Assembly: GCA_000002445.1 (NCBI GenBank)
Contig: CM000208.1
Coordinates: forward strand, 1,888,001-1,952,000
DNA length: 64,000 nucleotides
Reading direction: 5' to 3'
Origin: Trypanosoma brucei
Lineage: Eukaryota
The translations under genes were made by a program, and so were the position numbers. Positions 11,288 through 28,232 of this stretch are shown piece after piece; positions within the stretch are counted from its first letter, which is position 1; each line of letters starts with the position of its first letter. The notes beneath the pieces were generated by a model, which saw only the letters and a program-made list of their open reading frames with translations, did no database searches and had not been told where the DNA came from.

Positions 11288-14113
11288 TCAACAAATGAGT
11301 CCATATGAAGATATCACCATTTCACGAATATTAGAATCCACGAGTCCCAGCTGCTCCCTTAGCAAAGATGAGTGCTTGTTGCTATAAAATGAGAGCAATA
11401 ATTTGATGCTCTCGTGTGTTCCCGGGAAGTTACAAGCCGACTGCCTCCAGCTGTAAACAAGCCTCATGACGTCGGGCAGGATATCACGCGCGACATCTTC
11501 CACTGCTAAAAGAACATTTACTAGATGTATCGTTGCAACAGACTTATCGTATGCGTTTTCGCACTCCGTTATAATTCGGGTAATAACATCTGGTCGCGCA
11601 TGCACTACAAGACCAGGTGCCGCTTCCAGGGCACTACATACTTCGAACGCCATCTGGGAGAACAGCAACTGAGATTCACTAAAGGCGTCGCTTCGAAGCA
11701 CATCAACAGCCGCCTTAAATGCGCAGAATACACCGTTTGGGGATTCGTGCGAATACGACTTCACCATCAGCATAATTAAGTATACAAATTCTAGCTTATT
11801 TTGTAGGTCACCAGCTGTAATTACGGAAGACGTCAGTTTTCCTAGAAGCTCCTCTACTATTCCCTGAGGAAAAGCACAAGTGCCGGCATTTTTTAATAGT
11901 CGATGAAGAAGGGTGACAGCAGCCACCTGAACTGCTAACTCCTCCGATGGATTAAAAAGTTGAAATGCCAGTACGGCAATGCATCCCTGAGTACGAGAAC
12001 ACCAACCAGCAAGGGAACTCGATGGAGTTACATTGGCGCAATTCGCAGCGATAAAAAGGACGTTGAGTAGCAGGCTGATATCGTCCCTAATATTCCTCTC
12101 AATGATGTCCCTTAATACTACACTCCACGCATCAAGCAGCTCAAGAGAAACTGCAGGATCAGGAAATCTCGTTAACATTCCGATAATAGCCCGATCAACT
12201 GAAAAAACATCCTTATCGACAAACACGTTTGGCGTTTCATTAATATAGTAAGCTACATACGTAGTCTCAAACCCCTTGGTGCGCTCAATTCTGTTCGCCC
12301 TGAATGCAGCACTCAAAAGCGCCACGGTATTCTGATCCTCTGATAGCGCAGCTAGGTGCATGGCCAAATCACAAAGAATGAAAAGATTACCATCGTTATA
12401 GAACGGCAGGCAACTGATAACCATCTCGATCAAAGACGGGAGATCACCTGTAACTTTTTCGGTAGTGCCCATAGTATGGGCTGTCATGAATGCGGTGTTG
12501 ATAGCGGTGACAGCGGCATGACGGACACGTTTGCTCCTGCTTTGCAGGCGAGACGCAAATGCATTGATAATTTTGCTGATGGTGCTGTCATCCTGTGCGT
12601 ATGTCCATTCCAAAACCCGTGACAATGACCACAGCGACATGCTCACAACAAAAATATTTTCAGATGGAGATAAAACGGCGGATATCAACTGCTCAACAAC
12701 AGCCGGAAGTGTATCACCAATCTCGTCGTAGCAACCGTTAGCCATTGCACCGACAAGAACGATAGCTGCCTCCTTGTACTGCCATTCGCCATCCCACAAG
12801 GCTTTAACTTTTTCGATCAGGTGCGGGAATGTTTGCTTGCTCGAAAGAACGCAAAGAGCATCTATGCAACGGAGTGCTGTTGAACGCAACGTTGCAGTTC
12901 CATGGTTATCGTCGAGCGCAGAATCCTCAGATATATCATACTTTTGCTCGTTTAGATGGAAATCAACGGCTGCCGGGTCCCTCATGCTGCAGTCGTCCTC
13001 AGATAGAATATTCTCCACATCTTCCCTTGTCATGGGTACATAAGTTACCAAAGCAGACACAAGACTCGGCAGTGACTCAATTAGAGGTTGAATGAGAGCA
13101 CATATGTAACCCTCACCTCCCATCTTGTCGTACATCTCCATTGTTAGCGTTAAGAGGTCTATTGCGGAAATTTTTAACTGGACGTCGTGTTCAGTTACAA
13201 TTCCAGCCGACACACTAGTGCAAATAGTATCCCTGCTCCAGCATTTAATGAACCTAGCCATGTCGGATTCTGGCATAGGGGTAAAGTATTCCAAGTAGTC
13301 GAGCATCACACCACAAGAGCGGAATACTTGTATTTTTAGCTCAACGTCACCTCCACAATTCTGTTCAGAAAGCAGGCAACAAAGGTTAGTGAAAGTACGA
13401 CTGCCGCTCGTCAGTCCGATTTGTAGAGGTGACAAGCTCTCTACGTTCCAGTCAAGGGATTGTGCTTGTTCATACATATTCGAACACATACGAAAAGCAG
13501 CCTTTCGGACACCCCATTGGGCGTTTGGGTCCAAGACAAGTACTGCGACACGCTCAATAATATCCTTACTTGCAAGACCTACCTCTTCTGGAAGGTCCTC
13601 CACAAGGTACTGAAGGGTATATAAAGCCGAAAAGGTCTTCACCTCTCCCGCCATCAGCAGGTCGTTTAGAAGTGTGTTAGGGAGATTACCCAGCCCACAC
13701 TCCTCCCACCAGCTAAATGAGGTTAATACTGTTATCTTTACAACAATTTGAGCAGCTACGCGGGCGATTCGAACATCTGTCGGGTTAACAAGAACAGCTA
13801 GTGAACAGCCAGCCGCCTCCCTTATAGCCGCTTCACCCAAAGCAAGCTTACACCGCTCCAAGTTGTTCTTTAGGGTAATCCCAGCCAACCGCCTGTACTG
13901 TACCCAGTTGCCGCCGAGGTCAACGTCAACCGGGCATGTTTCCGCACCGAACAAATATGATAACAACACGAAGAACGTTGAGTCCGATTGATACCGTTGC
14001 AATTCTTCGTATGCCTTTTTTGAGTTGTGAACGTTAACACCATTATCGCGAAGAAGGTGTAGCACTTTCACAACATCACCTGATGTTATGGAATAACCTC
14101 CCGCAAAACTCAT
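11288..14113 (-). CDS. Importin-beta family karyopherin (transportin-like), HEAT-repeat protein.
   Basis: 941 aa. The N-terminus resembles the importin-beta N-terminal domain (LHLLRDNG...AYEELQRYQSDSTFFVLLSYLFG). The rest has helical-repeat character throughout. Confidence 0.7.
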   Translation of the reverse strand: MSFAGGYSITSGDVVKVLHLLRDNGVNVHNSKKAYEELQRYQSDSTFFVLLSYLFGAETCPVDVDLGGNWVQYRRLAGITLKNNLERCKLALGEAAIREAAGCSLAVLVNPTDVRIARVAAQIVVKITVLTSFSWWEECGLGNLPNTLLNDLLMAGEVKTFSALYTLQYLVEDLPEEVGLASKDIIERVAVLVLDPNAQWGVRKAAFRMCSNMYEQAQSLDWNVESLSPLQIGLTSGSRTFTNLCCLLSEQNCGGDVELKIQVFRSCGVMLDYLEYFTPMPESDMARFIKCWSRDTICTSVSAGIVTEHDVQLKISAIDLLTLTMEMYDKMGGEGYICALIQPLIESLPSLVSALVTYVPMTREDVENILSEDDCSMRDPAAVDFHLNEQKYDISEDSALDDNHGTATLRSTALRCIDALCVLSSKQTFPHLIEKVKALWDGEWQYKEAAIVLVGAMANGCYDEIGDTLPAVVEQLISAVLSPSENIFVVSMSLWSLSRVLEWTYAQDDSTISKIINAFASRLQSRSKRVRHAAVTAINTAFMTAHTMGTTEKVTGDLPSLIEMVISCLPFYNDGNLFILCDLAMHLAALSEDQNTVALLSAAFRANRIERTKGFETTYVAYYINETPNVFVDKDVFSVDRAIIGMLTRFPDPAVSLELLDAWSVVLRDIIERNIRDDISLLLNVLFIAANCANVTPSSSLAGWCSRTQGCIAVLAFQLFNPSEELAVQVAAVTLLHRLLKNAGTCAFPQGIVEELLGKLTSSVITAGDLQNKLEFVYLIMLMVKSYSHESPNGVFCAFKAAVDVLRSDAFSESQLLFSQMAFEVCSALEAAPGLVVHARPDVITRIITECENAYDKSVATIHLVNVLLAVEDVARDILPDVMRLVYSWRQSACNFPGTHESIKLLLSFYSNKHSSLLREQLGLVDSNIREMVISSYGLIC

Positions 14114-14189
14114 TGAAAACTTTACTTTACCTCATGGGGGAAAGTGGAGCAGAAGCAACGGTAGTAATGTCAAAATGAAAACCAGCAGT

Positions 14190-14225
14190 TACCATTATTC
14201 AACGGCTTAAAAAAAAAAACTAAAG
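14190..14225 (+). promoter_or_regulatory. Purine-rich tract on the plus strand, equal to a polypyrimidine tract on the minus strand, just 5' of the karyopherin CDS. Candidate trans-splice acceptor region.
   Basis: Sequence gcttaaaaaaaaaaactaaag and purine-rich flanks downstream (plus coordinates) of the 14113 start. The same pattern recurs upstream of other minus-strand CDSs, e.g. 44284-44350 and 61261-61330. Confidence 0.4.
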
Positions 14226-15195
14226 TCAATAATGTAAAGTGAACATTTTAATCACATAACCCCAATCTCTCGCCTGGTTCCGTAGTCTTCGAAAGGTCCA
14301 GACGTGTGTGAACGGTGAGAAAAGAGCAGGTGCATAGTGCACCGAGCACCAAGTGAGAACTAGTGATCGCTCACGCGAAGAATCTCTGCACCCATGGAAA
14401 GTCGATGCATTTGCCACGCATTCCTCTACTCACGCCCCCACACAAAGCAGACCCTACCATTAGGAAGGAACATAGTGGAAGCACAGAGTCATAGCAGTGC
14501 TGAATGTAATGACGGTTAAAGGGAACCTGTCCCCGCTATGATTACACCAGCAAAGCTCTACCCAACGAAGCACCCATTGGTGAAAAAGCGGAGAGCCACT
14601 GCTAACAGAGAAGTGCTTGAGCATTGCTCTCAAAAATAAAAAAATGGAAGGTGAACCTTTTCATCACAAAAGCAAAAGAGTTAGTGCAACTGGCAAATGC
14701 ATCCTGGAACTAAGCGCTTGGTGAAGTACACGGACACTCCACGCCCAGAGCGTGTTCAAACGCTTATGCGCCGGATATATCATTTGCTATCCAGGGGGGG
14801 AGGGTCAAAGCACTGTCGCTTGGTCGTCTCCAACATCACCCACAGCCTTACATGCACATACGATCATCAGAGAAAACTTTCCTTGAGGTTGCCGACGACT
14901 CCAACGTGCTTATCCTCCTCTTCCTTTCTTACCTTGGGCTGTCTCGGTAACAGCCCGCGCCGCATACCAGAGTTGGCCAGTACATTCAGGATCCGTCAAG
15001 GCTACCCCAATTCGATTACAAGGTTAGACTGCATCCGAAGCGGTAACGAGGGTGGGCGGGCTTAACCACGGTATGCTTGCCATTGGAGTATCTCTGTGGT
15101 GAAAATTACAACATCCCCCTGGACTTAGTTGCTGCTCACTCCACATCCTAGCGTGGATGCGCGCGGTGTCGAGACAGAAAAACATCGCGGTTGCA

Positions 15196-15230
15196 CCCCC
15201 TCCCCCCCCCCCCCACACACACACACAACA
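15196..15230. repeat. Homopolymer C19 followed by (CA)n on the plus strand. On the minus strand this is G-run plus (GT)n.
   Basis: ccccctcccccccccccccccacacacacacacaaca, read directly. Confidence 0.9.
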
Positions 15231-15530
15231 CCGCCGCACCAAACAATGCCTAGTAACCGCACTTCCCAAGCTGGGTCCCGGCTGCTGTGCCGATGTGGAA
15301 GCAGTAGCATAACAGCACCGACATGGATGCAATATGAGAAAACCCCATGCTGGGAACCGACGACCCCAAACGGCTAGCAGCAGCGCACCCCAACAGAATG
15401 CGCCACTGGCAGCTGTTCAAAGAAGGGAAGCCCGAGGTAATACGGACCAAGAAAACGTAAGCCCTTTTCAACCCTCTGTGATGCCAGCCTCAAACTCCCG
15501 AATACGGACAGGGCAATGGAAGATGGTTGT

Positions 15531-15552
15531 CCCCCCCCCCCCCCCCCCCCCC
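15531..15552. repeat. Poly-C tract of 22 nt, equal to poly-G on the minus strand.
   Basis: Read directly. Confidence 0.9.
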
Positions 15553-16000
15553 GAGGCCCGTCAGATCCATCTTCCCCTAGCGGAATACGCGACCCGGCAA
15601 AACTATGCACTCCAACGGCGCGTCACGCCCCCGTTTCGTCTGTACGGATCGGACGAAACAAGTTCCCCGCATCTCTAGGGTTTTGTTACAGCAATAAACT
15701 GATGATAACTGGAGAGACCTCCTGCGGTGACGCACCTGTTTCTCAAGAAAAGATGGGGGCGCTGCAGCCTCTCTTCCTGCCTGCGGATGTGCTTTCTTTT
15801 TCATTTAAGTTGCTATTTCTCTGTATATATGAAGATGCAGGTCAGACAACCTGTGGAGTGGGACTGGAGACGTGCTCACCGAAGCGCTCTGAGTGTGCGG
15901 TACGGCCCAATCGGGATAGGGAGATGCAGAGACCCTTTCCACCTAACAGGATGAACGTTCTAAAAGTAGAAAAGAAAAATAAAAATTGGGGTGTTCCCGC

Positions 16001-16072
16001 GGCCCAGTGGTCTAGTGGCATGATTCTCCCTTAGGGTGGGAGAGGTCCCGGGTTCAATTCCCGGCTGGGCCC
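16001..16072 (+). tRNA. tRNA-Pro (anticodon AGG).
   Basis: Cloverleaf: acceptor GGCCCAG/CTGGGCC, anticodon stem CTCCC/GGGAG, loop TTAGGGT, T-arm CCCGG-TTCAATT-CCGGG. Near-identical in outline to canonical eukaryotic tRNA-Pro. Followed by TTTT. Confidence 0.9.
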
Positions 16073-16132
16073 TCTTTTCGATTCCTTGTCAGGAATAAGG
16101 CAAACAAGGCGGTGAAGGTCAACGGCATGCGT

Positions 16133-16204
16133 GGCCGCTTAGCTCAATGGCAGAGCGCCGTCCTAGTAAGACGGAGGTCGGGGGTTCGATCCCCCCAGTG
16201 GCCT
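16133..16204 (+). tRNA. tRNA-Thr (anticodon AGU).
   Basis: Acceptor GGCCGCT/AGTGGCC, D-stem GCTC/GAGC, anticodon stem CCGTC/GACGG, loop CTAGTAA, T-arm GGGGG-TTCGATC-CCCCC. Terminator cgttttt follows. Confidence 0.9.
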
Positions 16205-19200
16205 CGTTTTTCACCACTTCACAACGGCCTTTGCTCGTCGGGGAGGCGGGAAACGCAGACACCAAAGGGCCGGTGGCTTAGTCAGATTCGGTTGGCGAAA
16301 ACTGGCAGGGTACTTGTTGCTTGTGCTCCCCTCTTTCCTCTTCTTTTTCTTTGGTACACGTAAGAAGGGAGGGAGTGGTGAACATGAGGAAATGCAAGGT
16401 GCCCTGGGGTCTCCACGAAGAGAAAAGGAATCATCCAACCAGTTCGTAACCATTCGTCTCTTCCCAACTACCGCACAATTTAATGAGCGGCGGAAAACTT
16501 CCCAAGTCAATGTCCATCTCCTTTGTAAATCTATCACAACTTAAAAACACACATGAATGGAACCTCTGAATAGTGCCGTGCAAGTGAGGGTTAGCGTCCC
16601 TCCCCCCTCCCCCACCCTCAAAAGTGGCCAACTTCACTTTTTTATCGGTCAATTTTTTTTTATTCGTTGAGGCGACGCCCATTTTTGGCATCACCACAGC
16701 AAGGAAAACGCTAAAAATTTTTGGTGCAGTGCCATTATGTTTTAGTTTTATTCCTAATTTATCGACCAGTTGCCGTTACCTTTTTCGCAATCCACTGATT
16801 TATCTTTAGCATTGCGTAGGGGAACGAAAGTTTCCCCTCGTATCCACGAGAGATGTAATTTTATCCGGCATTACGTCCTTCTCCGGTATTCACTTTTTTT
16901 CGGAGAAAGGAAAAGGCAAAAGAAACGCCATTTGATCGCGTCCTATGGTTTCTCACCACCACCCTTTCCCATGCCCCCATAACGAGTGGGCGCCCTCGTC
17001 TGCTTCACAAGTTTCTCGTACAAGCGACTTTTCCGCGGAAAGGGAACATTGGAATTTCGTGTAGCCACCGTTTCTACGAGAAGAATGAAATGAGTTATTG
17101 CTTACCCGAAAATAGAGGTCCTAACCAATCGAAAGCTAAAGTAAATAGACAAATCGCGCCGAAAGTACGCGCAGCGATTTTCTAACATTACCCTTGCAAC
17201 TCCCTCACCCTTTCAGCAAGCACGCAGAGGGCCTGGGAACTGACGAGTGGTGGATATACCATAAAAGTGCATCGTTGGGATCTTTTTCTGAGGCTGCAAA
17301 AATGCATGTTTCAGCAAAATCCGCATCTTGATTGCCACAAGCCCGCGTATGTGTTACTCACTTCTCTCTCTTTAACGGTAACTCCCGAAGGAGGCTGTAT
17401 GTCACCCCTTCCGTGGTGGAAGATCGTAACGAATTTACGGATGCCACAGTTGGAGGACATTTTAACGTTTGACCGAAGTATCGAGGAAGACACACTCACC
17501 CCTATAAATCCCTGCACCATCGGAAAATAGAAACCCATAAGTTGGTGGAAGCAATAGCTTCTGCGCCCCCAATCGCCTCCCTAAGGTGACGATATTCGCT
17601 TGATCCAAATAAACCCTTCGATAAGTTCACCACCTCTTCCCGGTCCCCTTTGTGGGTGTTATAACTGACATATTGGGTTCCCTGTGCATAATTCGCAGTC
17701 GACCGCAGAGAGCGAGGCAAGACGCATACCACGGCGTGGAGGTGGAATAGCGAGTGGTGCAGCTGCAAGCTTTCCGGCTTCGAACTTTCTTTCCTTAAAA
17801 AAGATACTGGGCCTTTGCAAGGCGGTGAAACGGCCGGTATCACGCTCTTTCCCCTTCCTACTACCCGCGCGTTTCACGACTCTCCCCAATGGTCGAGTCA
17901 AATGAGAAATGCAGCAGCGTTAGCGGATTTTTTGTGCAACGCAATCGACTATACTACTCGTACCATTTAAATCCCATCTCCATCCTCATTTCCCAAGACC
18001 CCTTTGTTGCCTCTATGCAATCGCAAAAGGTAATTATGAAGGTCATACGTACTTCAATTGCCTATCTGGATCGGCGCGAGCTGTACATTTATGGGAGGAA
18101 TCTTCCTGTATACCTTCGGTTATGCGTGCAGGTGCTATTTGGATTTGTCTTGTGTCTATATTTCCGCTGCGTTAAAATTCTCTTAGTTGCAAATATTTAC
18201 TTGTAAAAGTTACATTTTAGATCCTTAGTGGATGCGAGAAGGCTGACAGTGTTTGGTACTAGATTTTTGGGATTGTGAATCCTGTGAACACCCGTTTGTT
18301 GTATGGGGAACCCTGTTTTCTGTTTGCAGCCGGCCGTGGCCTCACTGCATTTGGTTCGATACTGGCCGCTGTGGCTGAGTACTCTCTTCTTCCGAGTCGC
18401 ACCCTTCAGCGCAGCATTTTCCTCCAGCGTACGCGCCCGCAATTTTCATGTCGGCAAATATATGCTCAGTGTTAAAAGTAAAGGACCTCAATATTCCGAT
18501 TCCACCCGGGATATTATAACCAACTGAACTGTTCATAACCCGATAGACCTTACTTTAATTATTTAATACCTCTCCACTGGGACTCGCTCTTTTAGCGGCG
18601 CGTGACTGATGCTGTTTAGTGCTGCGCCTTAATAGCGACGCTCGTTGTTTCCTCAGTTCTGGAAAACACAAGCGCTCCGTGGTGAGTGTGCCATGGCGGC
18701 TCTGACCGATTTGCTGGGATGAATTACCCGGTCGTTGCGTGTTAACTCCGCGGGTCTAGCCGAGATTTTTTGCCTCCCTCTGGACAAGCTAAACTGAATG
18801 GGGACCTTCTTTTGGAGCAGTTAGTATGGAGTGGCCATCCCTTGGAACAGGTAGCATGCTTTACTCCAAATTTGCCCCCGACAAAATCGATTGGACTAGA
18901 GCTAGCCGGATCGCAGACAAGCCCGCTTCCCGGCCACATGGGACTGATGCACAATCGATGTTGATCCTCCTGGTCGAAGCACCTGAGAGTGATGAATTGG
19001 CTGTCACAGGTACAGCGGACGACGTGGGTGACGACGCGGCTTCACCAGTGACCAGTATCAGGTGGCAAGGACTATGGCATCTTATTTCGTTTCTGTCGGG
19101 CAGACTCTTAGTTAGCAGAAATGTGCTCGCCGCCCGTGGGATTTTGTTCGTAGTTTGCTGTTGGACGAAGCGCGACGGCAGTCGGTTGCTGGACTCAACT

Positions 19201-19489
19201 TTATGTCTCTTATTAGGGTCTCTGGCCACTTTGGCACAGAAGGCAGTCGCGAAGCCGAGTTCCAGCGGACCCAATTGCTACCTTTCCTTCCGTGGGAAAA
19301 GCGAAAAAAATATTGACACCGGACGGAAACAACCGCCGACACCCCAAAGTTTAAACGCTAATCGGCTGCGCCGCCTAGTAAAAGTCGAGACGGCGATGCC
19401 AGCCAGTGCTCAACACTGACTTACTTGTTACAAAAACTAACCATCACTTTAAATAAATATTTTGTTACAATAAACACCATGACCACCGC

Positions 19490-19567
19490 CGCCTGGCGCT
19501 GCTTGTTCAGCCGCTTCCATACCACGTGGTTTTTCGTCTGTCGAGGGTTCGAATCCACGGCTGGCTG
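19490..19567 (+). other. tRNA-like element or tRNA pseudogene. It has an intact B-box/T-loop (GGTTCGAATCC) but no clean cloverleaf, and a T-run follows.
   Basis: GGTTCGAATCC lies at 19546-19556. The 3' end ggctggctg is followed by tttt. I could not pair an acceptor or T-stem without at least two mismatches, and an internal ttttt sits at 19530-19534. Confidence 0.3.
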
Positions 19568-19649
19568 TTTTCTTCCCAGGACGTGCTTAAAATGATAACG
19601 ATCTGCTCATTGCGGTGTGTCGATGTTTTGTGCTGTAGCGGTGTCCCGT

Positions 19650-19731
19650 GGCGAGATGGTCGAGTGGTCTAAGACGTTGGATTAAGGTTCCAATCCTTCC
19701 GAGGGCGTGGGTTCAAACCCCACTCTCGTCA
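19650..19731 (+). tRNA. tRNA-Leu (anticodon AAG), class II with a long variable arm.
   Basis: Acceptor GGCGAGA/TCTCGTC, anticodon stem TTGGA/TCCAA, loop TTAAGGT, variable arm about 13 nt, T-arm GTGGG-TTCAAAC-CCCAC. Followed by ctttttg. Confidence 0.85.
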
Positions 19732-19792
19732 ACTTTTTGCGAACCGGCGACCTTTATTTTCCTTTGGAGAAAAAAGGGTGGATGTGAAAACT

Positions 19793-19864
19793 TAGCACCG
19801 GTTGGTTTCGATCCAACGTCCTATGGGTTATGAGCCCATCGCGCTTCCCCTGCGCCACGGTGCT
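19793..19864 (-). tRNA. Initiator tRNA-Met (anticodon CAU).
   Basis: Reverse complement reads AGCACCG-TG-GCGC-AGGGGAA-GCGC-G-ATGGG-CTCATAA-CCCAT-AGGAC-GTTGG-ATCGAAA-CCAAC-CGGTGCT-A. It has the eukaryotic initiator hallmarks A54/A60 (GATCGAAACC) and three G-C pairs in the anticodon stem. T-run downstream on the minus strand. Confidence 0.9.
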
Positions 19865-19936
19865 TCGGGGACCCGGCGCTATCTCCAATCTACTCCAGCA
19901 TAGGTGCATAAGTTGGACCTGGTGCCCCGCCGGTGT

Positions 19937-20008
19937 GGCCGTTTGGTCTAGTGGTATGATTCCTGCTTTGGGTGCAGGAGGTCACGGGTTCAATTCCCGT
20001 AACGGCCC
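19937..20008 (+). tRNA. tRNA-Pro (anticodon UGG).
   Basis: Acceptor GGCCGTT/AACGGCC, anticodon stem CCTGC/GCAGG, loop TTTGGGT, T-arm CACGG-TTCAATT-CCGTA-like. Followed by ttttctgg. Confidence 0.9.
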
Positions 20009-21646
20009 TTTTCTGGGCGCCCAATTTCCTTACCCACCGGCTTCACCGAAACGGGAAAAAGGCACGTGTGGTGGATGGGTGTTTTGTCCACCTTCCTTCC
20101 AATGTGGCGAAAAAAGCTGTCGTTCTGCGTGGGAAGGGAGGGTCGCATTTTGGACCGACTGATATGCATGTGGAGGTGGATGGCGAGTCGTGACGCCCGA
20201 AAAGCGGTGATGGTTCTTCGGGAGTTGGAGAAGCGGCGTTTGGGGAACGCTGGGGTCTCCACCCGTTGCGGGAACGGATGGTTTGTGGCCTTCCTAAAGT
20301 GAACAAGCGGAGACCCTCATTGAGGGAATTCCTCTTGTGGCGGTAAAGCGCCTGGAGCGAGGCCGCGGCACAGAGGATATAGGATGATATAGGTTGGTTC
20401 ATTCGGTTGGAGGCCGCTGGTTCCCCCCTAAACTTGGAACTGCAGTTGTACATTTAAAAAGGAGGTCCCTGTCAAGCTTCACCGTGTCGAAAAGAGTTGC
20501 ATCAACACTGGAAGAGAAAAATGGTTTACGGCGCGCCGCCGCCGTCCTCGTTCGAGCCCTCAGCAAATGGACGAATGGGCAGGGAGAAAAGAATCAGGTT
20601 TACTAGTAGAAGGCGGTGCGGCCCACTAAGGCACCTTTTATCATCCGTACTCCGTTTCTTAGCGGTCGCCTGCTCATGAGAATCTCTTCTTTGGTGCAGC
20701 TTGTCCCTTCCTTCCCGCTAACAGCGGACTTGCCCACCTGGTGTATTCCGGCCTTTTATTGCTCACCCCCCTTTGCACCACATGAGGGGACAGTGTGAAA
20801 TCCTTACCCTTCGTTGGGGGCTCATGGATAAGGCACCAGCAGGCGAACGCGCGATGTAGATTCCAATTGTCAGTAAAACCGCACAGACCTACCAACGCGC
20901 GTCGGCTATTTGTCTGGGTCCGTGACATAAGCAACCCCTGAAGGGATGCAGCCCCACAATTGTCGACAATCGCATTTTTAGTCTTTGAAAGAAGAGAAAA
21001 CACTGAGGAGGGAAGTTGCAGTTTCAGCGACGGAAGCGACACCTCCCCAAGGGGAGATAAATACATCAAGTAAAGTGTTACTGTGTCGTCTATTTTATTT
21101 TTTTTACTCTGCCCCATGGCGATGCCTGCCACCTCAACGTGGTGCCAGGGTTCAGTACCCCGTCTCATCGGGGAAGCCAAGAGCCAGCAGCGTTCCTTTC
21201 ATCGGGAACAATGCTTTGCTCCGGCTACGGCATCATACAGCACAGGGATCAGCAGCGCCTTGCTGGGACACCGTTTTTCATTTGTCGGTCCCTGGGCACG
21301 TGCCATCAGCAGTATCAACCGCACTAAGATGCTGCTGTCCGGTGATGTGGAACTCCAAAAAAAAGGATTGCTAATTGACATCTTTGGGAGAGTCCGGGGT
21401 GAGGGGGGCTTCTCTCCCCATCTGCTGTATTCCGTTCAACTGAGGAGCTACAACAAAAAATTATAGAGGGTGTGTTAGGGTGAATAAAAAAAAGGGAGAC
21501 TCTGCCACAGTCGCCAGACCGATAGCACCTCAGGGCTCTACGGTGATGGCTGATGGCCGCGCCAGTGGGGGGAAACTCTCACGAAGGAACGAAGAAAATT
21601 CCGATTTTTTTTTTACTCTGCTGATGATTTTGCTCCGTCATTGCAC

Positions 21647-22396
21647 TTAATTGGCCCTTCGCGTCTTCAGCACGGCCTCCCGTCCCTGCCGCAACCTTTT
21701 TGCTTGGAGGTCTACTCCCCGCTTTTTGGACCTCAACCAAACGTCCTCTGCAGTAGGTGTTTTCTTAACTGACTGGACTCTCTTCATCGTTTGGAACTTC
21801 CGCGCCTTCCTTGACGTGAAGTCGATGGACCTCTCACGTACCTCATCAATGGTTAACAGTTTTCCCTCCAGCTCGGTTACCGCGGGTGCTGCGGGGGATA
21901 CGCCAGTGCGTGTCAATCCCACTCGCCGAACGACACCGGCTGTGTCCGCTCGTCCATCCCATATGCTCGTCAGAATCTCTAGATTATCGCTGTTGGTGAT
22001 GTCTGGTATGACGATTCCTTTGGAGGAGTTGAAATCATCTGCCTCACTTGTTTTCATGGCCTCGAGTATTTTGATACGCCCCGCAGTGGGATTGCGCATG
22101 GATTTCAGAGCCACAATTTCCTCGTCGTTCCGTTTTAGATATTGTTCCGTTAGCACCTGTGCCTCCTCGCGGGAGAACGCCAGTTTAGTCCGCCCCAAGG
22201 CCAAACATTGCTCGCGAAACCAGAAGAAGCGAGCCGCCTCCAGAGCTGCCTTTGCGTTCCGCTTTCCCTTCTGTTCACTAATTCGTTTCTCCCGCCGCGA
22301 CTGCCGCTGCAGTTGCCGCACCTTCCGACTCTTCGGATGCGTCACAACCACTTTGGCATTTCCTTTTCCCGCCATGAGAGCCGTCTGCACACACAA
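21647..22396 (-). CDS. TMA16: Translation machinery-associated protein 16 (TMA16) family protein. Last gene of the right-hand minus-strand array.
   Basis: 249 aa, basic. Remembered TMA16 blocks align: [14 protein letters not shown] ~ [40 protein letters not shown] ~ [44 protein letters not shown] ~ GLEIPDILNASNLKTF. The 253-aa ORF on the opposite strand is Ser/Arg/Phe-rich and reads as an antisense artefact. Confidence 0.65.
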   Translation of the reverse strand: [249 protein letters not shown]

Positions 22397-27863: not shown

Positions 27864-28035
27864 TAGTGTGGAAGCGCGCCGTTGCTCCTGCCGTCACTCA
27901 GCCCTTATAAATGCAGCATTGGGACAAAGCAAAATAAAGTGCAGACGATATAGGGGGTAAAATGGCACCGCTGGCACCATCAGTGAATTTGACAGCATGA
28001 CAAGAATTTATTGTGCATTACATGGGAGGGCGTCT

Positions 28036-28056
28036 TGTGTGTGTGTGTGTGTGTGT
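28036..28056. repeat. (GT)n microsatellite.
   Basis: gtgtgtgtgtgtgtgtgtgtc, read directly. Confidence 0.9.
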
Positions 28057-28216
28057 CGTACGTTAAGCGCGCCTGCGTTAAAACAGACGCACCCCACAGG
28101 TTGACTCACGATTGGACAGGTGTGGGAATATAAGAACACTTGTGCCTCATTTCCGAAGCCTCAGCTGTGAATGCCGGGGGTGGAAAAAAAAAAAGAAGAG
28201 GAAGCGATCGGGGTTT

Positions 28217-28232
28217 GGGGGGGGGGGGGGGG
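28217..28232. repeat. Poly-G tract of 16 nt on the plus strand.
   Basis: Read directly. Confidence 0.9.

What the first reader, a model, noticed from the sequence alone, without database searches (positions are those of the whole stretch)
14114..21646. A 7.5 kb ORF-poor boundary carrying two tRNA clusters between two same-strand polycistronic arrays
All credible CDSs on both sides are on the minus strand. Even so, a 7.5 kb stretch has no ORF with protein-like composition, where typical inter-CDS spacers in this window run about 0.3 to 1.5 kb. The stretch holds five tRNA genes and a tRNA-like fragment. In trypanosomatids, Pol III genes often sit at head-to-tail junctions where Pol II transcription terminates (base J, H3.V) and restarts (H2A.Z, H2B.V). 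So this is probably a termination and re-initiation site inside what looks like a single directional cluster. It is also the most likely place for unannotated small RNA genes.
Basis: partly seen in the sequence, partly recalled or inferred. Interest (0 to 1): 0.5.

Follow-up and report, generated by a model that had tools for sequence, protein, structure and literature searches.

The report
Known tRNA/U5 boundary between transcription units

Summary
Window 14114-21646 is a 7,533 bp gap between minus-strand genes; the other 24 spacers have a median of 569 bp and a maximum of 1,703 bp. It holds five tRNA genes and a tRNA-like remnant, and no credible coding sequence.

The window is T. brucei TREU927 chromosome 10, 1,888,001-1,952,000. 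Published data already cover this locus:
- All five tRNAs lie in the annotated single termination region sTTR_14 and carry Pol III/termination-associated factors (Staneva 2021).
- A 5'-triphosphate RNA-seq map ends one unit at Tb10.6k15.2950 and starts the next, typed "next to tRNA", at Tb10.6k15.3020 (Kolev 2010).
- The three annotated gap ORFs gave no detectable transcript.

New details from sequence analysis:
- The tRNA-like remnant is the divergent promoter element of the U5 snRNA gene (about 19342-19403, minus strand). Rfam misses this gene. One 2009 table places it 496 bp away.
- A complete RIME retroposon with target-site duplications lies at 21113-21604.
- The strongest sense-strand GT-rich/G-run segment of the window (15.1-15.7 kb) lies where re-initiation is expected.
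- In T. vivax the two tRNA clusters sit on different contigs.

Verdict: interpretation supported, already known, low interest.

The parts
14114..21646 (.). Gene-free boundary region between two minus-strand polycistronic units. Transcription runs from right to left.
   Evidence: The spacer is 7,533 bp; the other 24 spacers have a median of 569 bp and a maximum of 1,703 bp. No ORF has family or cross-species support. Annotated ORFs Tb10.6k15.3010.2990 and .2980 are listed as giving no detectable transcript.
21647..22396 (-). Tma16 gene, the last credible gene of the upstream unit.
   Evidence: Pfam Tma16, E = 1.3e-30. Orthologues in T. vivax, T. grayi, T. theileri and T. melophagium are followed by the same tRNA cluster.
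21113..21604 (+). Complete RIME non-autonomous retroposon. It is antisense to the transcription units and lies about 42 nt beyond the Tma16 stop codon.
   Evidence: Window 21114-21352 is 90% identical to an ingi 5' end and 21351-21600 is 93% identical to the ingi 3' end (L013). The encoded fragment matches 'Tbingi protein' entries, with a decayed 2A-like motif.
21098..21112 (+). Left target-site duplication of the RIME (TTTTTTTTACTCTGC).
   Evidence: Read from the sequence. It matches the right copy.
21605..21621 (+). Right target-site duplication of the RIME (TTTTTTTTTTACTCTGC).
   Evidence: Read from the sequence.
19937..20008 (+). tRNA-Pro (TGG).
   Evidence: Followed by TTTT. Equals Tb10_tRNA_Pro_1 at 1907937..1908008. 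Lies in sTTR_14.
19793..19864 (-). tRNA-Met (CAT).
19649..19733 (+). tRNA-Leu (AAG).
19546..19573 (+). tRNA-like remnant: B box GGTTCGAATCC, a short tail and TTTT. Inferred to be the divergent Pol III promoter element of U5.
   Evidence: The B box lies 147 nt upstream of the U5 core on the opposite strand. Similar B boxes lie 136-169 nt upstream in three other species. The published rule puts box A about 104-106 bp and box B about 150 bp upstream. ARAGORN does not call it a tRNA.
19342..19403 (-). U5 snRNA gene. Invariant core 19365-19399; exact ends not determined.
   Evidence: A 35-nt pattern (33 nt invariant, two positions Y/R) occurs once in each of five Trypanosoma lineages. The stem-loop has loop CGACUUUUACUA and three kept-pair changes on both sides, the two clear ones being G-C to A-U and C-G to U-A. 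An Sm-like AAACUUUGG follows. Rfam U5 aligns at 17.5 bits, below its threshold. U5 is reported in this tRNA locus, antisense to Tb10.6k15.2990.
19304..19310 (-). T7 run downstream of U5, a candidate Pol III terminator.
   Evidence: Sequence.
16133..16205 (+). tRNA-Thr (AGT).
   Evidence: The pair is conserved upstream of the transportin2-like gene in T. vivax.
16001..16072 (+). tRNA-Pro (AGG).
15101..15700 (-). GT-rich segment on the sense strand, with G13(GU)n (15202-15232) and G22 (15531-15552). Inferred Pol II re-initiation element.
   Evidence: It holds the two most AC-rich 500-bp windows of the 64 kb on the plus strand (0.63, +3.2 sd) and the longest A/C-only run. It holds the only two C-runs of 9 or more in the window. 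GT-rich sense-strand elements drive directional initiation in T. brucei.
14206..14219 (-). T11 polypyrimidine tract followed by AG. Predicted first spliced-leader acceptor, about 92 nt upstream of the ATG.
   Evidence: Sequence only. This is an inference and was not mapped.
11288..14113 (-). Transportin2-like gene, the first gene of the downstream unit.
   Evidence: HEAT-repeat matches. Orthologues are named transportin2-like. By gene order it is Tb10.6k15.3020, the first ORF of the unit typed 'next to tRNA'.

Best explanation
This is a head-to-tail boundary between two RNA polymerase II polycistronic units on T. brucei chromosome 10. Pol II travels leftwards and finishes the upstream unit at the Tma16 gene. 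It then terminates across a zone occupied by Pol III genes. The first cluster holds tRNA-Pro(TGG), tRNA-Met, tRNA-Leu, a tRNA-like promoter remnant and the U5 snRNA gene. After 3.1 kb comes the second cluster, tRNA-Thr and tRNA-Pro(AGG). Pol III complexes and termination chromatin are thought to block Pol II there. Pol II starts again in the GT-rich, G-run-bearing segment at about 15.1-15.7 kb. The first mRNA of the new unit is the transportin2-like gene, probably trans-spliced near 14206. Shown here: the anatomy, the identity of the Pol III genes, the absence of coding sequence, and the composition signal. Shown by published experiments on this same locus: the termination-region annotation, factor binding, the start of a new unit next to the tRNAs, and the lack of transcripts from the gap ORFs. 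Inferred: the roadblock mechanism, the exact initiation and splice-acceptor sites, and use of the tRNA-like B box as the U5 promoter.
For: The anatomy is established. The locus is identified as TREU927 chromosome 10 by an exact offset of 1,888,000. Kolev 2010 Table S14 ends one unit at Tb10.6k15.2950 and starts a 'next to tRNA' unit at Tb10.6k15.3020. Its Table S2 lists the three gap ORFs as giving no detectable transcript, and its text describes initiation next to tRNA genes. Staneva 2021 Table S8 puts all five tRNAs in sTTR_14 with RNAPIII/TTR factors. That paper also states that head-to-tail termination regions often coincide with Pol III genes. Aeby 2010 reports that T. brucei tRNA clusters lie in regions of at least 5 kb without protein-coding genes. 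The GT-rich and G-run outlier sits exactly between the last tRNA and the first gene, and Wedel 2017 showed that such elements drive directional initiation. U5 identity rests.
Against: No histone-variant, base-J, RNA-seq or spliced-leader data could be examined directly for these coordinates. The link to Tb10.6k15.3020 and .2950 rests on gene order, not on a coordinate table. Box A of the tRNA-like element could not be identified at the expected 104-106 bp. The GT-rich signal is compositional and other spacers reach 0.61. The roadblock role of Pol III genes is a hypothesis in the literature, not a demonstrated mechanism.
Confidence: 0.9

Rival explanations
1. The gap is a decayed or frameshifted protein-coding gene, or a graveyard of degenerate retroelements, and the tRNAs are incidental.
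For: A genuine RIME occupies 492 bp of the gap. ingi-like fragments also lie upstream of the transportin orthologue in T. grayi and T. theileri. T. vivax and T. melophagium carry a frameshifted conserved ORF of about 3 kb next to the equivalent tRNA cluster.
Against: The RIME is only 6.5% of the gap. tblastn with all ORF pieces of a full ingi element found nothing else in the gap at E < 0.01. The T. vivax/T. melophagium ORF has no trace in T. brucei. There are 81-100 stop codons per frame, and no gap ORF outside the RIME has family or cross-species support.
Confidence: 0.04
2. Pol II reads through and the small RNA genes are embedded in one continuous unit, as with the Pol II-transcribed tRNA-Sec genes of T. 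brucei.
For: Both flanks are on the same strand. tRNA-Sec shows that embedded, Pol II-transcribed tRNAs exist in this organism.
Against: The tRNA-Sec genes sit in ordinary 0.8-1.6 kb spacers, carry no termination-region annotation and bind no factors. Here the spacer is 7.5 kb, every tRNA has its own T-run, all five lie in sTTR_14, and a new unit is mapped next to the tRNAs.
Confidence: 0.04
3. The main role of the region is something other than transcription punctuation, such as a replication origin or a cohesin-bound chromosome-architecture boundary, and termination is secondary.
For: Literature read here reports cohesin (SCC1) enrichment over tRNA genes and contacts among some tRNA clusters. 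From my own knowledge, not checked here, ORC1/CDC6 binds unit boundaries in T. brucei.
Against: This does not exclude the main explanation, and no locus-specific data were seen. About three quarters of tRNA regions showed no Pol III-Pol III contacts.
Confidence: 0.15

Closest known systems
T. brucei single (head-to-tail) termination regions coinciding with Pol III genes, followed by non-divergent start regions (Siegel 2009, Kolev 2010, Muller 2018, Staneva 2021)
   Same: This is that class, and in fact one of its catalogued members: sTTR_14, and the unit typed 'next to tRNA' that starts at Tb10.6k15.3020. It has same-strand flanks, tRNA and snRNA genes, more than 5 kb without genes, and GT-rich sense-strand sequence at the restart.
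   Different: Nothing essential. It has two Pol III clusters 3.4 kb apart inside one termination region, plus a RIME insertion.
Trypanosomatid Pol III snRNA and 7SL genes driven by a divergent upstream tRNA or tRNA-like element (Nakaar 1994; L. major U2, Rojas-Sanchez 2016)
   Same: U5 lies on the opposite strand to a tRNA-like element whose B box is about 147 nt upstream, close to the 150 nt reported for L. major U2. The element ends in a T-run. The arrangement recurs in four of the five species compared.
   Different: Box A at 104-106 bp is not recognisable, and a T5 run lies between the expected box A position and box B. Promoter use was not tested.
L. major chromosome 3 convergent strand-switch region, where Pol II terminates at a tRNA gene
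   Same: A tRNA gene region marks Pol II termination.
   Different: That region is convergent, so both units end there. Here one unit ends and another starts on the same strand.
tRNA genes as chromatin insulators and Pol II barriers in yeast and human
   Same: Pol III complexes at tRNA genes separate neighbouring Pol II domains.
   Different: In trypanosomes the separated domains are multi-gene polycistrons. TFIIIC has not been identified. Histone variants and base J take part.

Membership tests
T. brucei head-to-tail Pol II termination/re-initiation boundary with Pol III genes | Protein-coding arrays on the same strand on both sides | tested here: met
   All supported ORFs are on the minus strand.
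T. brucei head-to-tail Pol II termination/re-initiation boundary with Pol III genes | Pol III-transcribed genes within a region of at least 5 kb without protein-coding genes | tested here: met
   Five tRNAs and U5 lie in 7,533 bp. The criterion comes from Aeby 2010.
T. brucei head-to-tail Pol II termination/re-initiation boundary with Pol III genes | Annotated or experimentally mapped termination region over the Pol III genes | tested here: met
   Checked by look-up of published tables, not by my own data. All five tRNAs are in sTTR_14 and bound by RNAPIII/TTR factors.
T. brucei head-to-tail Pol II termination/re-initiation boundary with Pol III genes | Mapped Pol II initiation (5'-triphosphate ends) at the start of the downstream unit | tested here: met
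   Checked by look-up. Kolev 2010 Table S14 lists a unit from Tb10.6k15.3020 to .3150, minus strand, typed 'next to tRNA'. Assigning the gene ID to the transportin2-like gene is an inference from gene order.
T. brucei head-to-tail Pol II termination/re-initiation boundary with Pol III genes | H3.V, H4.V and base J at the termination side; H2A.Z, H2B.V and H4K10ac at the start side | not testable with these tools
   No ChIP tracks were available. The marks are implied by the sTTR annotation only.
T. brucei head-to-tail Pol II termination/re-initiation boundary with Pol III genes | GT-rich sequence on the sense strand of the start region | tested here: met
   The top two 500-bp windows of the 64 kb lie at 15101-15700. 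The only C-runs of 9 or more are at 15202 and 15531.
U5 spliceosomal snRNA (trypanosomatid form) | 5' stem-loop whose terminal loop carries the invariant GCCUUUUAC | tested here: met
   The loop reads GACUUUUAC, an 8 of 9 match. The stem is supported by changes on both sides that keep the pair. The invariant motif is quoted.
U5 spliceosomal snRNA (trypanosomatid form) | Single-stranded Sm site 3' of the stem-loop | tested here: met
   AAACUUUGG in T. brucei and AAAUUUUGG in the other four species.
U5 spliceosomal snRNA (trypanosomatid form) | Reaches the Rfam RF00020 gathering score | tested here: not met
   17.5 bits against 40, E = 2.1 even on 161 nt, and absent from the wider scans. From my own knowledge, trypanosome U5 is unusually short.
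U5 spliceosomal snRNA (trypanosomatid form) | Divergent tRNA or tRNA-like element, box A about 104-106 bp and box B about 150 bp upstream | tested here: inconclusive
   Box B is present at 147 nt and conserved in position. Box A was not identified.
U5 spliceosomal snRNA (trypanosomatid form) | Position agrees with the published gene annotation | tested here: inconclusive
   Locus, strand and overlap with Tb10.6k15.2990 agree. The tabulated coordinates 1906846..1906907 correspond to window 18846-18907, which is 496 bp away and has no U5 features.
U5 spliceosomal snRNA (trypanosomatid form) | Expressed, Sm-bound, present in the spliceosome | not testable with these tools
   No RNA data.
RIME retroposon (ingi family) | About 500 bp made of the first and last ~250 bp of ingi | tested here: met
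   90% and 93% identity to the two ends of an ingi element in L013.
RIME retroposon (ingi family) | Flanking target-site duplication | tested here: met
   TTTTTTTT(TT)ACTCTGC is present on both sides.
RIME retroposon (ingi family) | 3' poly(A) tail | tested here: not met
   The element ends ...TTCCGA directly before the duplication, whereas the reference ingi has A8.
Pol II-transcribed tRNA embedded in a polycistron (tRNA-Sec type) | Lies in an ordinary short spacer between adjacent genes, outside termination regions | tested here: not met
   The spacer is 7.5 kb and lies in sTTR_14. tRNA-Sec sits in 0.8-1.6 kb spacers with no termination region and no factors.

The most novel reading that the evidence does not exclude
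T. brucei has joined two ancestrally separate Pol III-marked boundaries into one double-cluster termination/restart zone. One is the Tma16 / U5 / Pro-Met-Leu locus and the other is the Pro-Thr / transportin locus. These lie more than 450 kb from contig ends on different contigs in T. vivax, and they have different neighbours in T. grayi and T. melophagium. The join came with a local inversion of U5 and tRNA-Leu. In addition, the true U5 gene lies 496 bp from the coordinates tabulated in 2009 and is missing from the Lister 427 v9 snRNA list. At most this is a lineage-specific rearrangement at a known class of synteny breakpoint, plus an annotation correction.
Probability: 0.5. Interest if true: 0.25.

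Novelty: already known. Interest (0 to 1): 0.15.

Why it matters
The result shows that a reader working from sequence alone can recognise a trypanosome transcription-unit boundary correctly. The boundary itself is already catalogued and teaches nothing new about termination or initiation. Three practical points remain. The T. brucei U5 snRNA gene escapes Rfam-based annotation, so it can be mislocated or left out of genome annotations. A RIME insertion sits in the 3' region of the last gene of the upstream unit. The locus is a rearrangement breakpoint among Trypanosoma species, which fits the known link between structural RNA genes, retroelements and synteny breaks.

Tried and rejected
I scanned the 13 largest ORFs instead, with no hits.
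- tblastn of every ORF piece of a full ingi element against the window found only the RIME, so no degenerate ingi-like element was detected.
- The 240-bp similarity of 21.1-21.35 kb to sequence upstream of the transportin orthologue in T. grayi and T. theileri first looked like a conserved non-coding element. It is the ingi/RIME 5' end, that is, a repeat family.
- A conserved frameshifted ORF in the T. vivax and T. melophagium gaps has no counterpart in T. brucei and no Pfam match.
- No small RNA partner is conserved upstream of tRNA-Pro(AGG); the T. vivax similarity stops at the tRNA.
- ARAGORN pseudogene mode does not call the tRNA-like element.
- The original U5 paper (Xu 1997, PNAS) is not held. 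Three other papers gave no T. brucei U5 sequence.
- The splice-site and poly(A) tables of Kolev 2010 are truncated in the held copy and lack these genes.
- Orthologues from T. congolense and T. cruzi were not returned for Tma16, so close-species footprinting was not possible.

Full report
**Observation.** ARAGORN and Rfam agree on five tRNA genes in two clusters: Pro-AGG and Thr-AGT at 16.0-16.2 kb, and Leu-AAG, Met-CAT and Pro-TGG at 19.65-20.0 kb. Every ORF with protein-family support in the 64 kb is on the minus strand. The gene-free interval lies between the 941-aa transportin2-like gene (11288-14113) and the Tma16 gene (21647-22396). It measures 7,533 bp, against a median of 569 bp and a maximum of 1,703 bp for the other 24 spacers. 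Each frame of the gap has 81-100 stop codons and the longest open stretch is 208 aa. The 13 largest gap ORFs have no Pfam match.

**Identity of the window.** The flanking proteins are identical to T. equiperdum and T. b. gambiense entries. The tRNA coordinates in Additional file 1 of Padilla-Mejia et al. 2009 match the window with an offset of exactly 1,888,000. The window is therefore T. brucei TREU927 chromosome 10, 1,888,001-1,952,000, and the gap is that paper's tRNA locus carrying U5 (chr10-II).

**Published data on this locus.**
- Kolev et al. 2010 mapped putative Pol II units with 5'-triphosphate RNA-seq. Their Table S14 ends a minus-strand unit at Tb10.6k15.2950 and starts another, typed "next to tRNA", at Tb10.6k15.3020.
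- Their Table S2 lists the three annotated gap ORFs as giving no detectable transcript. These are Tb10.6k15.3010 (window 14697-15065).2990 (18826-19419) and .2980 (20043-20453).
- Because the IDs run in order, .3020 should be the transportin2-like gene and .2950 should be Tma16. This assignment is my inference.
- Staneva et al. 2021 Table S8 lists the same five tRNAs in Lister 427. Order, anticodons and spacing agree within 2 nt. All overlap the annotated single termination region sTTR_14 and are bound by RNAPIII/TTR-associated factors.
tRNA clusters lie in regions of at least 5 kb without coding genes. Head-to-tail termination regions often coincide with Pol III genes that may block Pol II. 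Initiation occurs next to tRNA genes.

**What else is in the gap.**

*1. A U5 snRNA gene.*
- blastn against the syntenic loci of T. vivax, T. grayi, T. melophagium and T. theileri found, beyond the tRNAs, one block of 35-40 nt at 94-98% identity. The 35-nt core pattern occurs once in each of five Trypanosoma lineages.
- On the minus strand this block forms a stem-loop with loop CGACUUUUACUA. RNAalifold counts three pairs kept through changes on both sides; the two clear cases are G-C to A-U and C-G to U-A.
- An Sm-like AAA(C/U)UUUGG follows, then a species-specific hairpin and a T7 run.
- The Rfam U5 model aligns to it at only 17.5 bits against a threshold of 40, so default scans miss it.
It lies 147 nt upstream of U5 on the opposite strand. 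Comparable B boxes lie 136-169 nt upstream in three other species. This fits the trypanosomatid rule that divergent tRNA or tRNA-like A and B boxes drive snRNA genes, with box B at about 150 bp. Box A was not recognisable.
- Padilla-Mejia et al. state that U5 lies in this locus, antisense to Tb10.6k15.2990. Their table, however, gives 1906846..1906907, which is window 18846-18907. That site has no U5 loop, no Rfam signal, no cross-species conservation, no upstream B box and no T-run. The U5-like sequence lies exactly 496 bp to the right. I cannot tell whether the table or the underlying annotation is wrong.
- In the Lister 427 v9 list only U2 and U6 appear as snRNAs.

*2. A complete RIME.* Window 21114-21352 matches an ingi 5' end (90%) and 21351-21600 matches the ingi 3' end (93%). 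The element is flanked by TTTTTTTT(TT)ACTCTGC duplications and lacks an A tail. It sits about 42 nt beyond the Tma16 stop codon, antisense to it. The T. equiperdum assembly breaks inside it.

*3. A candidate restart signal.* The only two C-runs of 9 or more in the window, C13(AC)n at 15202-15232 and C22 at 15531-15552, lie between the last tRNA and the first gene. So do the two most AC-rich 500-bp windows, at 0.63 or +3.2 sd. On the transcribed strand these are G-runs and GT-rich sequence, the kind of element shown to drive directional initiation and H2A.Z deposition. A T11 tract followed by AG at 14219-14206 is a plausible first spliced-leader acceptor; this is inference only.

**Comparative context.**
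- Tma16 is followed by U5 and the Pro-TGG, Met and Leu-AAG tRNAs in T. vivax, T. grayi and T. melophagium. In T. theileri, U5 and Pro-TGG are within reach of the fetched locus.
- The Pro-AGG/Thr-AGT pair lies 1.2 kb upstream of the transportin orthologue in T. vivax, also at a same-strand junction.
- In T. vivax the two loci lie deep inside different contigs. T. grayi and T. melophagium have other genes after the Tma16 cluster.
- The T. brucei gap therefore looks like two Pol III-marked boundaries brought together. U5 and tRNA-Leu are inverted relative to the other species.
- This agrees with the weak synteny of Pol III clusters reported by Padilla-Mejia et al.. From my own knowledge, El-Sayed 2005 linked synteny breaks with structural RNAs and retroelements.

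**Rival explanations.** A hidden frameshifted gene or a retroelement graveyard is not supported beyond the RIME. Read-through with embedded tRNAs, as for tRNA-Sec, conflicts with the spacer size, the individual T-runs and the published maps. Additional roles in replication or chromosome architecture are possible but were not examined.

**Verdict.** Both the class and this particular locus are already in the literature. The added value is limited to locating U5 precisely, flagging a coordinate discrepancy, identifying the RIME, and noting the rearrangement.

Noticed in passing
window 18846-18907 (-) versus 19342-19403 (-): Additional file 1 of Padilla-Mejia 2009 places the 62-nt U5 snRNA gene at chromosome 10 1906846..1906907, which is window 18846-18907. 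That sequence has no U5 features. The conserved U5-like sequence lies exactly 496 bp to the right. This may be an annotation or table error.
   Followed up: partly
window 21098-21621: A complete RIME with 15-17 bp target-site duplications lies about 42 nt downstream of the Tma16 stop codon, so the Tma16 3' UTR probably runs into antisense RIME sequence. The T. equiperdum OVI assembly breaks inside this element (contig ends in L001 and L002).
   Followed up: yes
L003 14138-17205 (-) and L007 11929-14831 (-): T. vivax and T. melophagium share a minus-strand coding sequence of about 3 kb (about 40% amino-acid identity) broken by frameshifts, next to the Tma16 tRNA cluster. There are partial matches in T. 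grayi and T. theileri. It has no Pfam match and no counterpart in the T. brucei window. It could be an unclassified mobile element or a pseudogene.
   Followed up: partly
window 28035-28056 and 28210-28232: A (GT)n run and a G16 run lie on the plus strand, so they read as C-rich on the transcribed strand, in an otherwise ordinary 0.55 kb spacer. The repeat finder paired them as inverted repeats with the C-runs at 15.2 and 15.5 kb. Their meaning is unknown.
   Followed up: no
window 14534-14591 (+) and 14599-14675 (-): Two weak C/D-box snoRNA-like Rfam matches, both far below threshold (GlsR7 at 28 bits, E = 0.002; SNORD33 at 25.5 bits), lie in the region upstream of the first gene of the new unit. 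The boxes are imperfect and there is no cross-species conservation, so they are probably chance.
   Followed up: no
window 17901-18500 and 19501-20500: These are the most GT-rich stretches on the plus strand in the whole window (A+C 0.41-0.43, about -2.5 to -2.9 sd). This is the mirror image of the 15.1-15.7 kb segment. It could relate to the antisense and bidirectional initiation reported at such sites, or it may simply reflect the plus-strand tRNAs.
   Followed up: no
L010 18-267 and 743-796; L011 279-526: ingi/L1Tc-like 5' fragments with an intact 2A-like motif (NPGP) lie upstream of the transportin2-like orthologue in T. grayi and T. theileri. Retroelements therefore recur at this boundary in several lineages.
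   Followed up: partly
window 19342-19733 versus L003 11332-12265: In T. brucei the U5 gene, its tRNA-like element and tRNA-Leu are inverted and moved to the other side of the Pro-TGG/Met pair, compared with T. vivax, T. grayi and T. melophagium. U5 is therefore co-directional with the flanking units only in T. brucei.
   Followed up: partly
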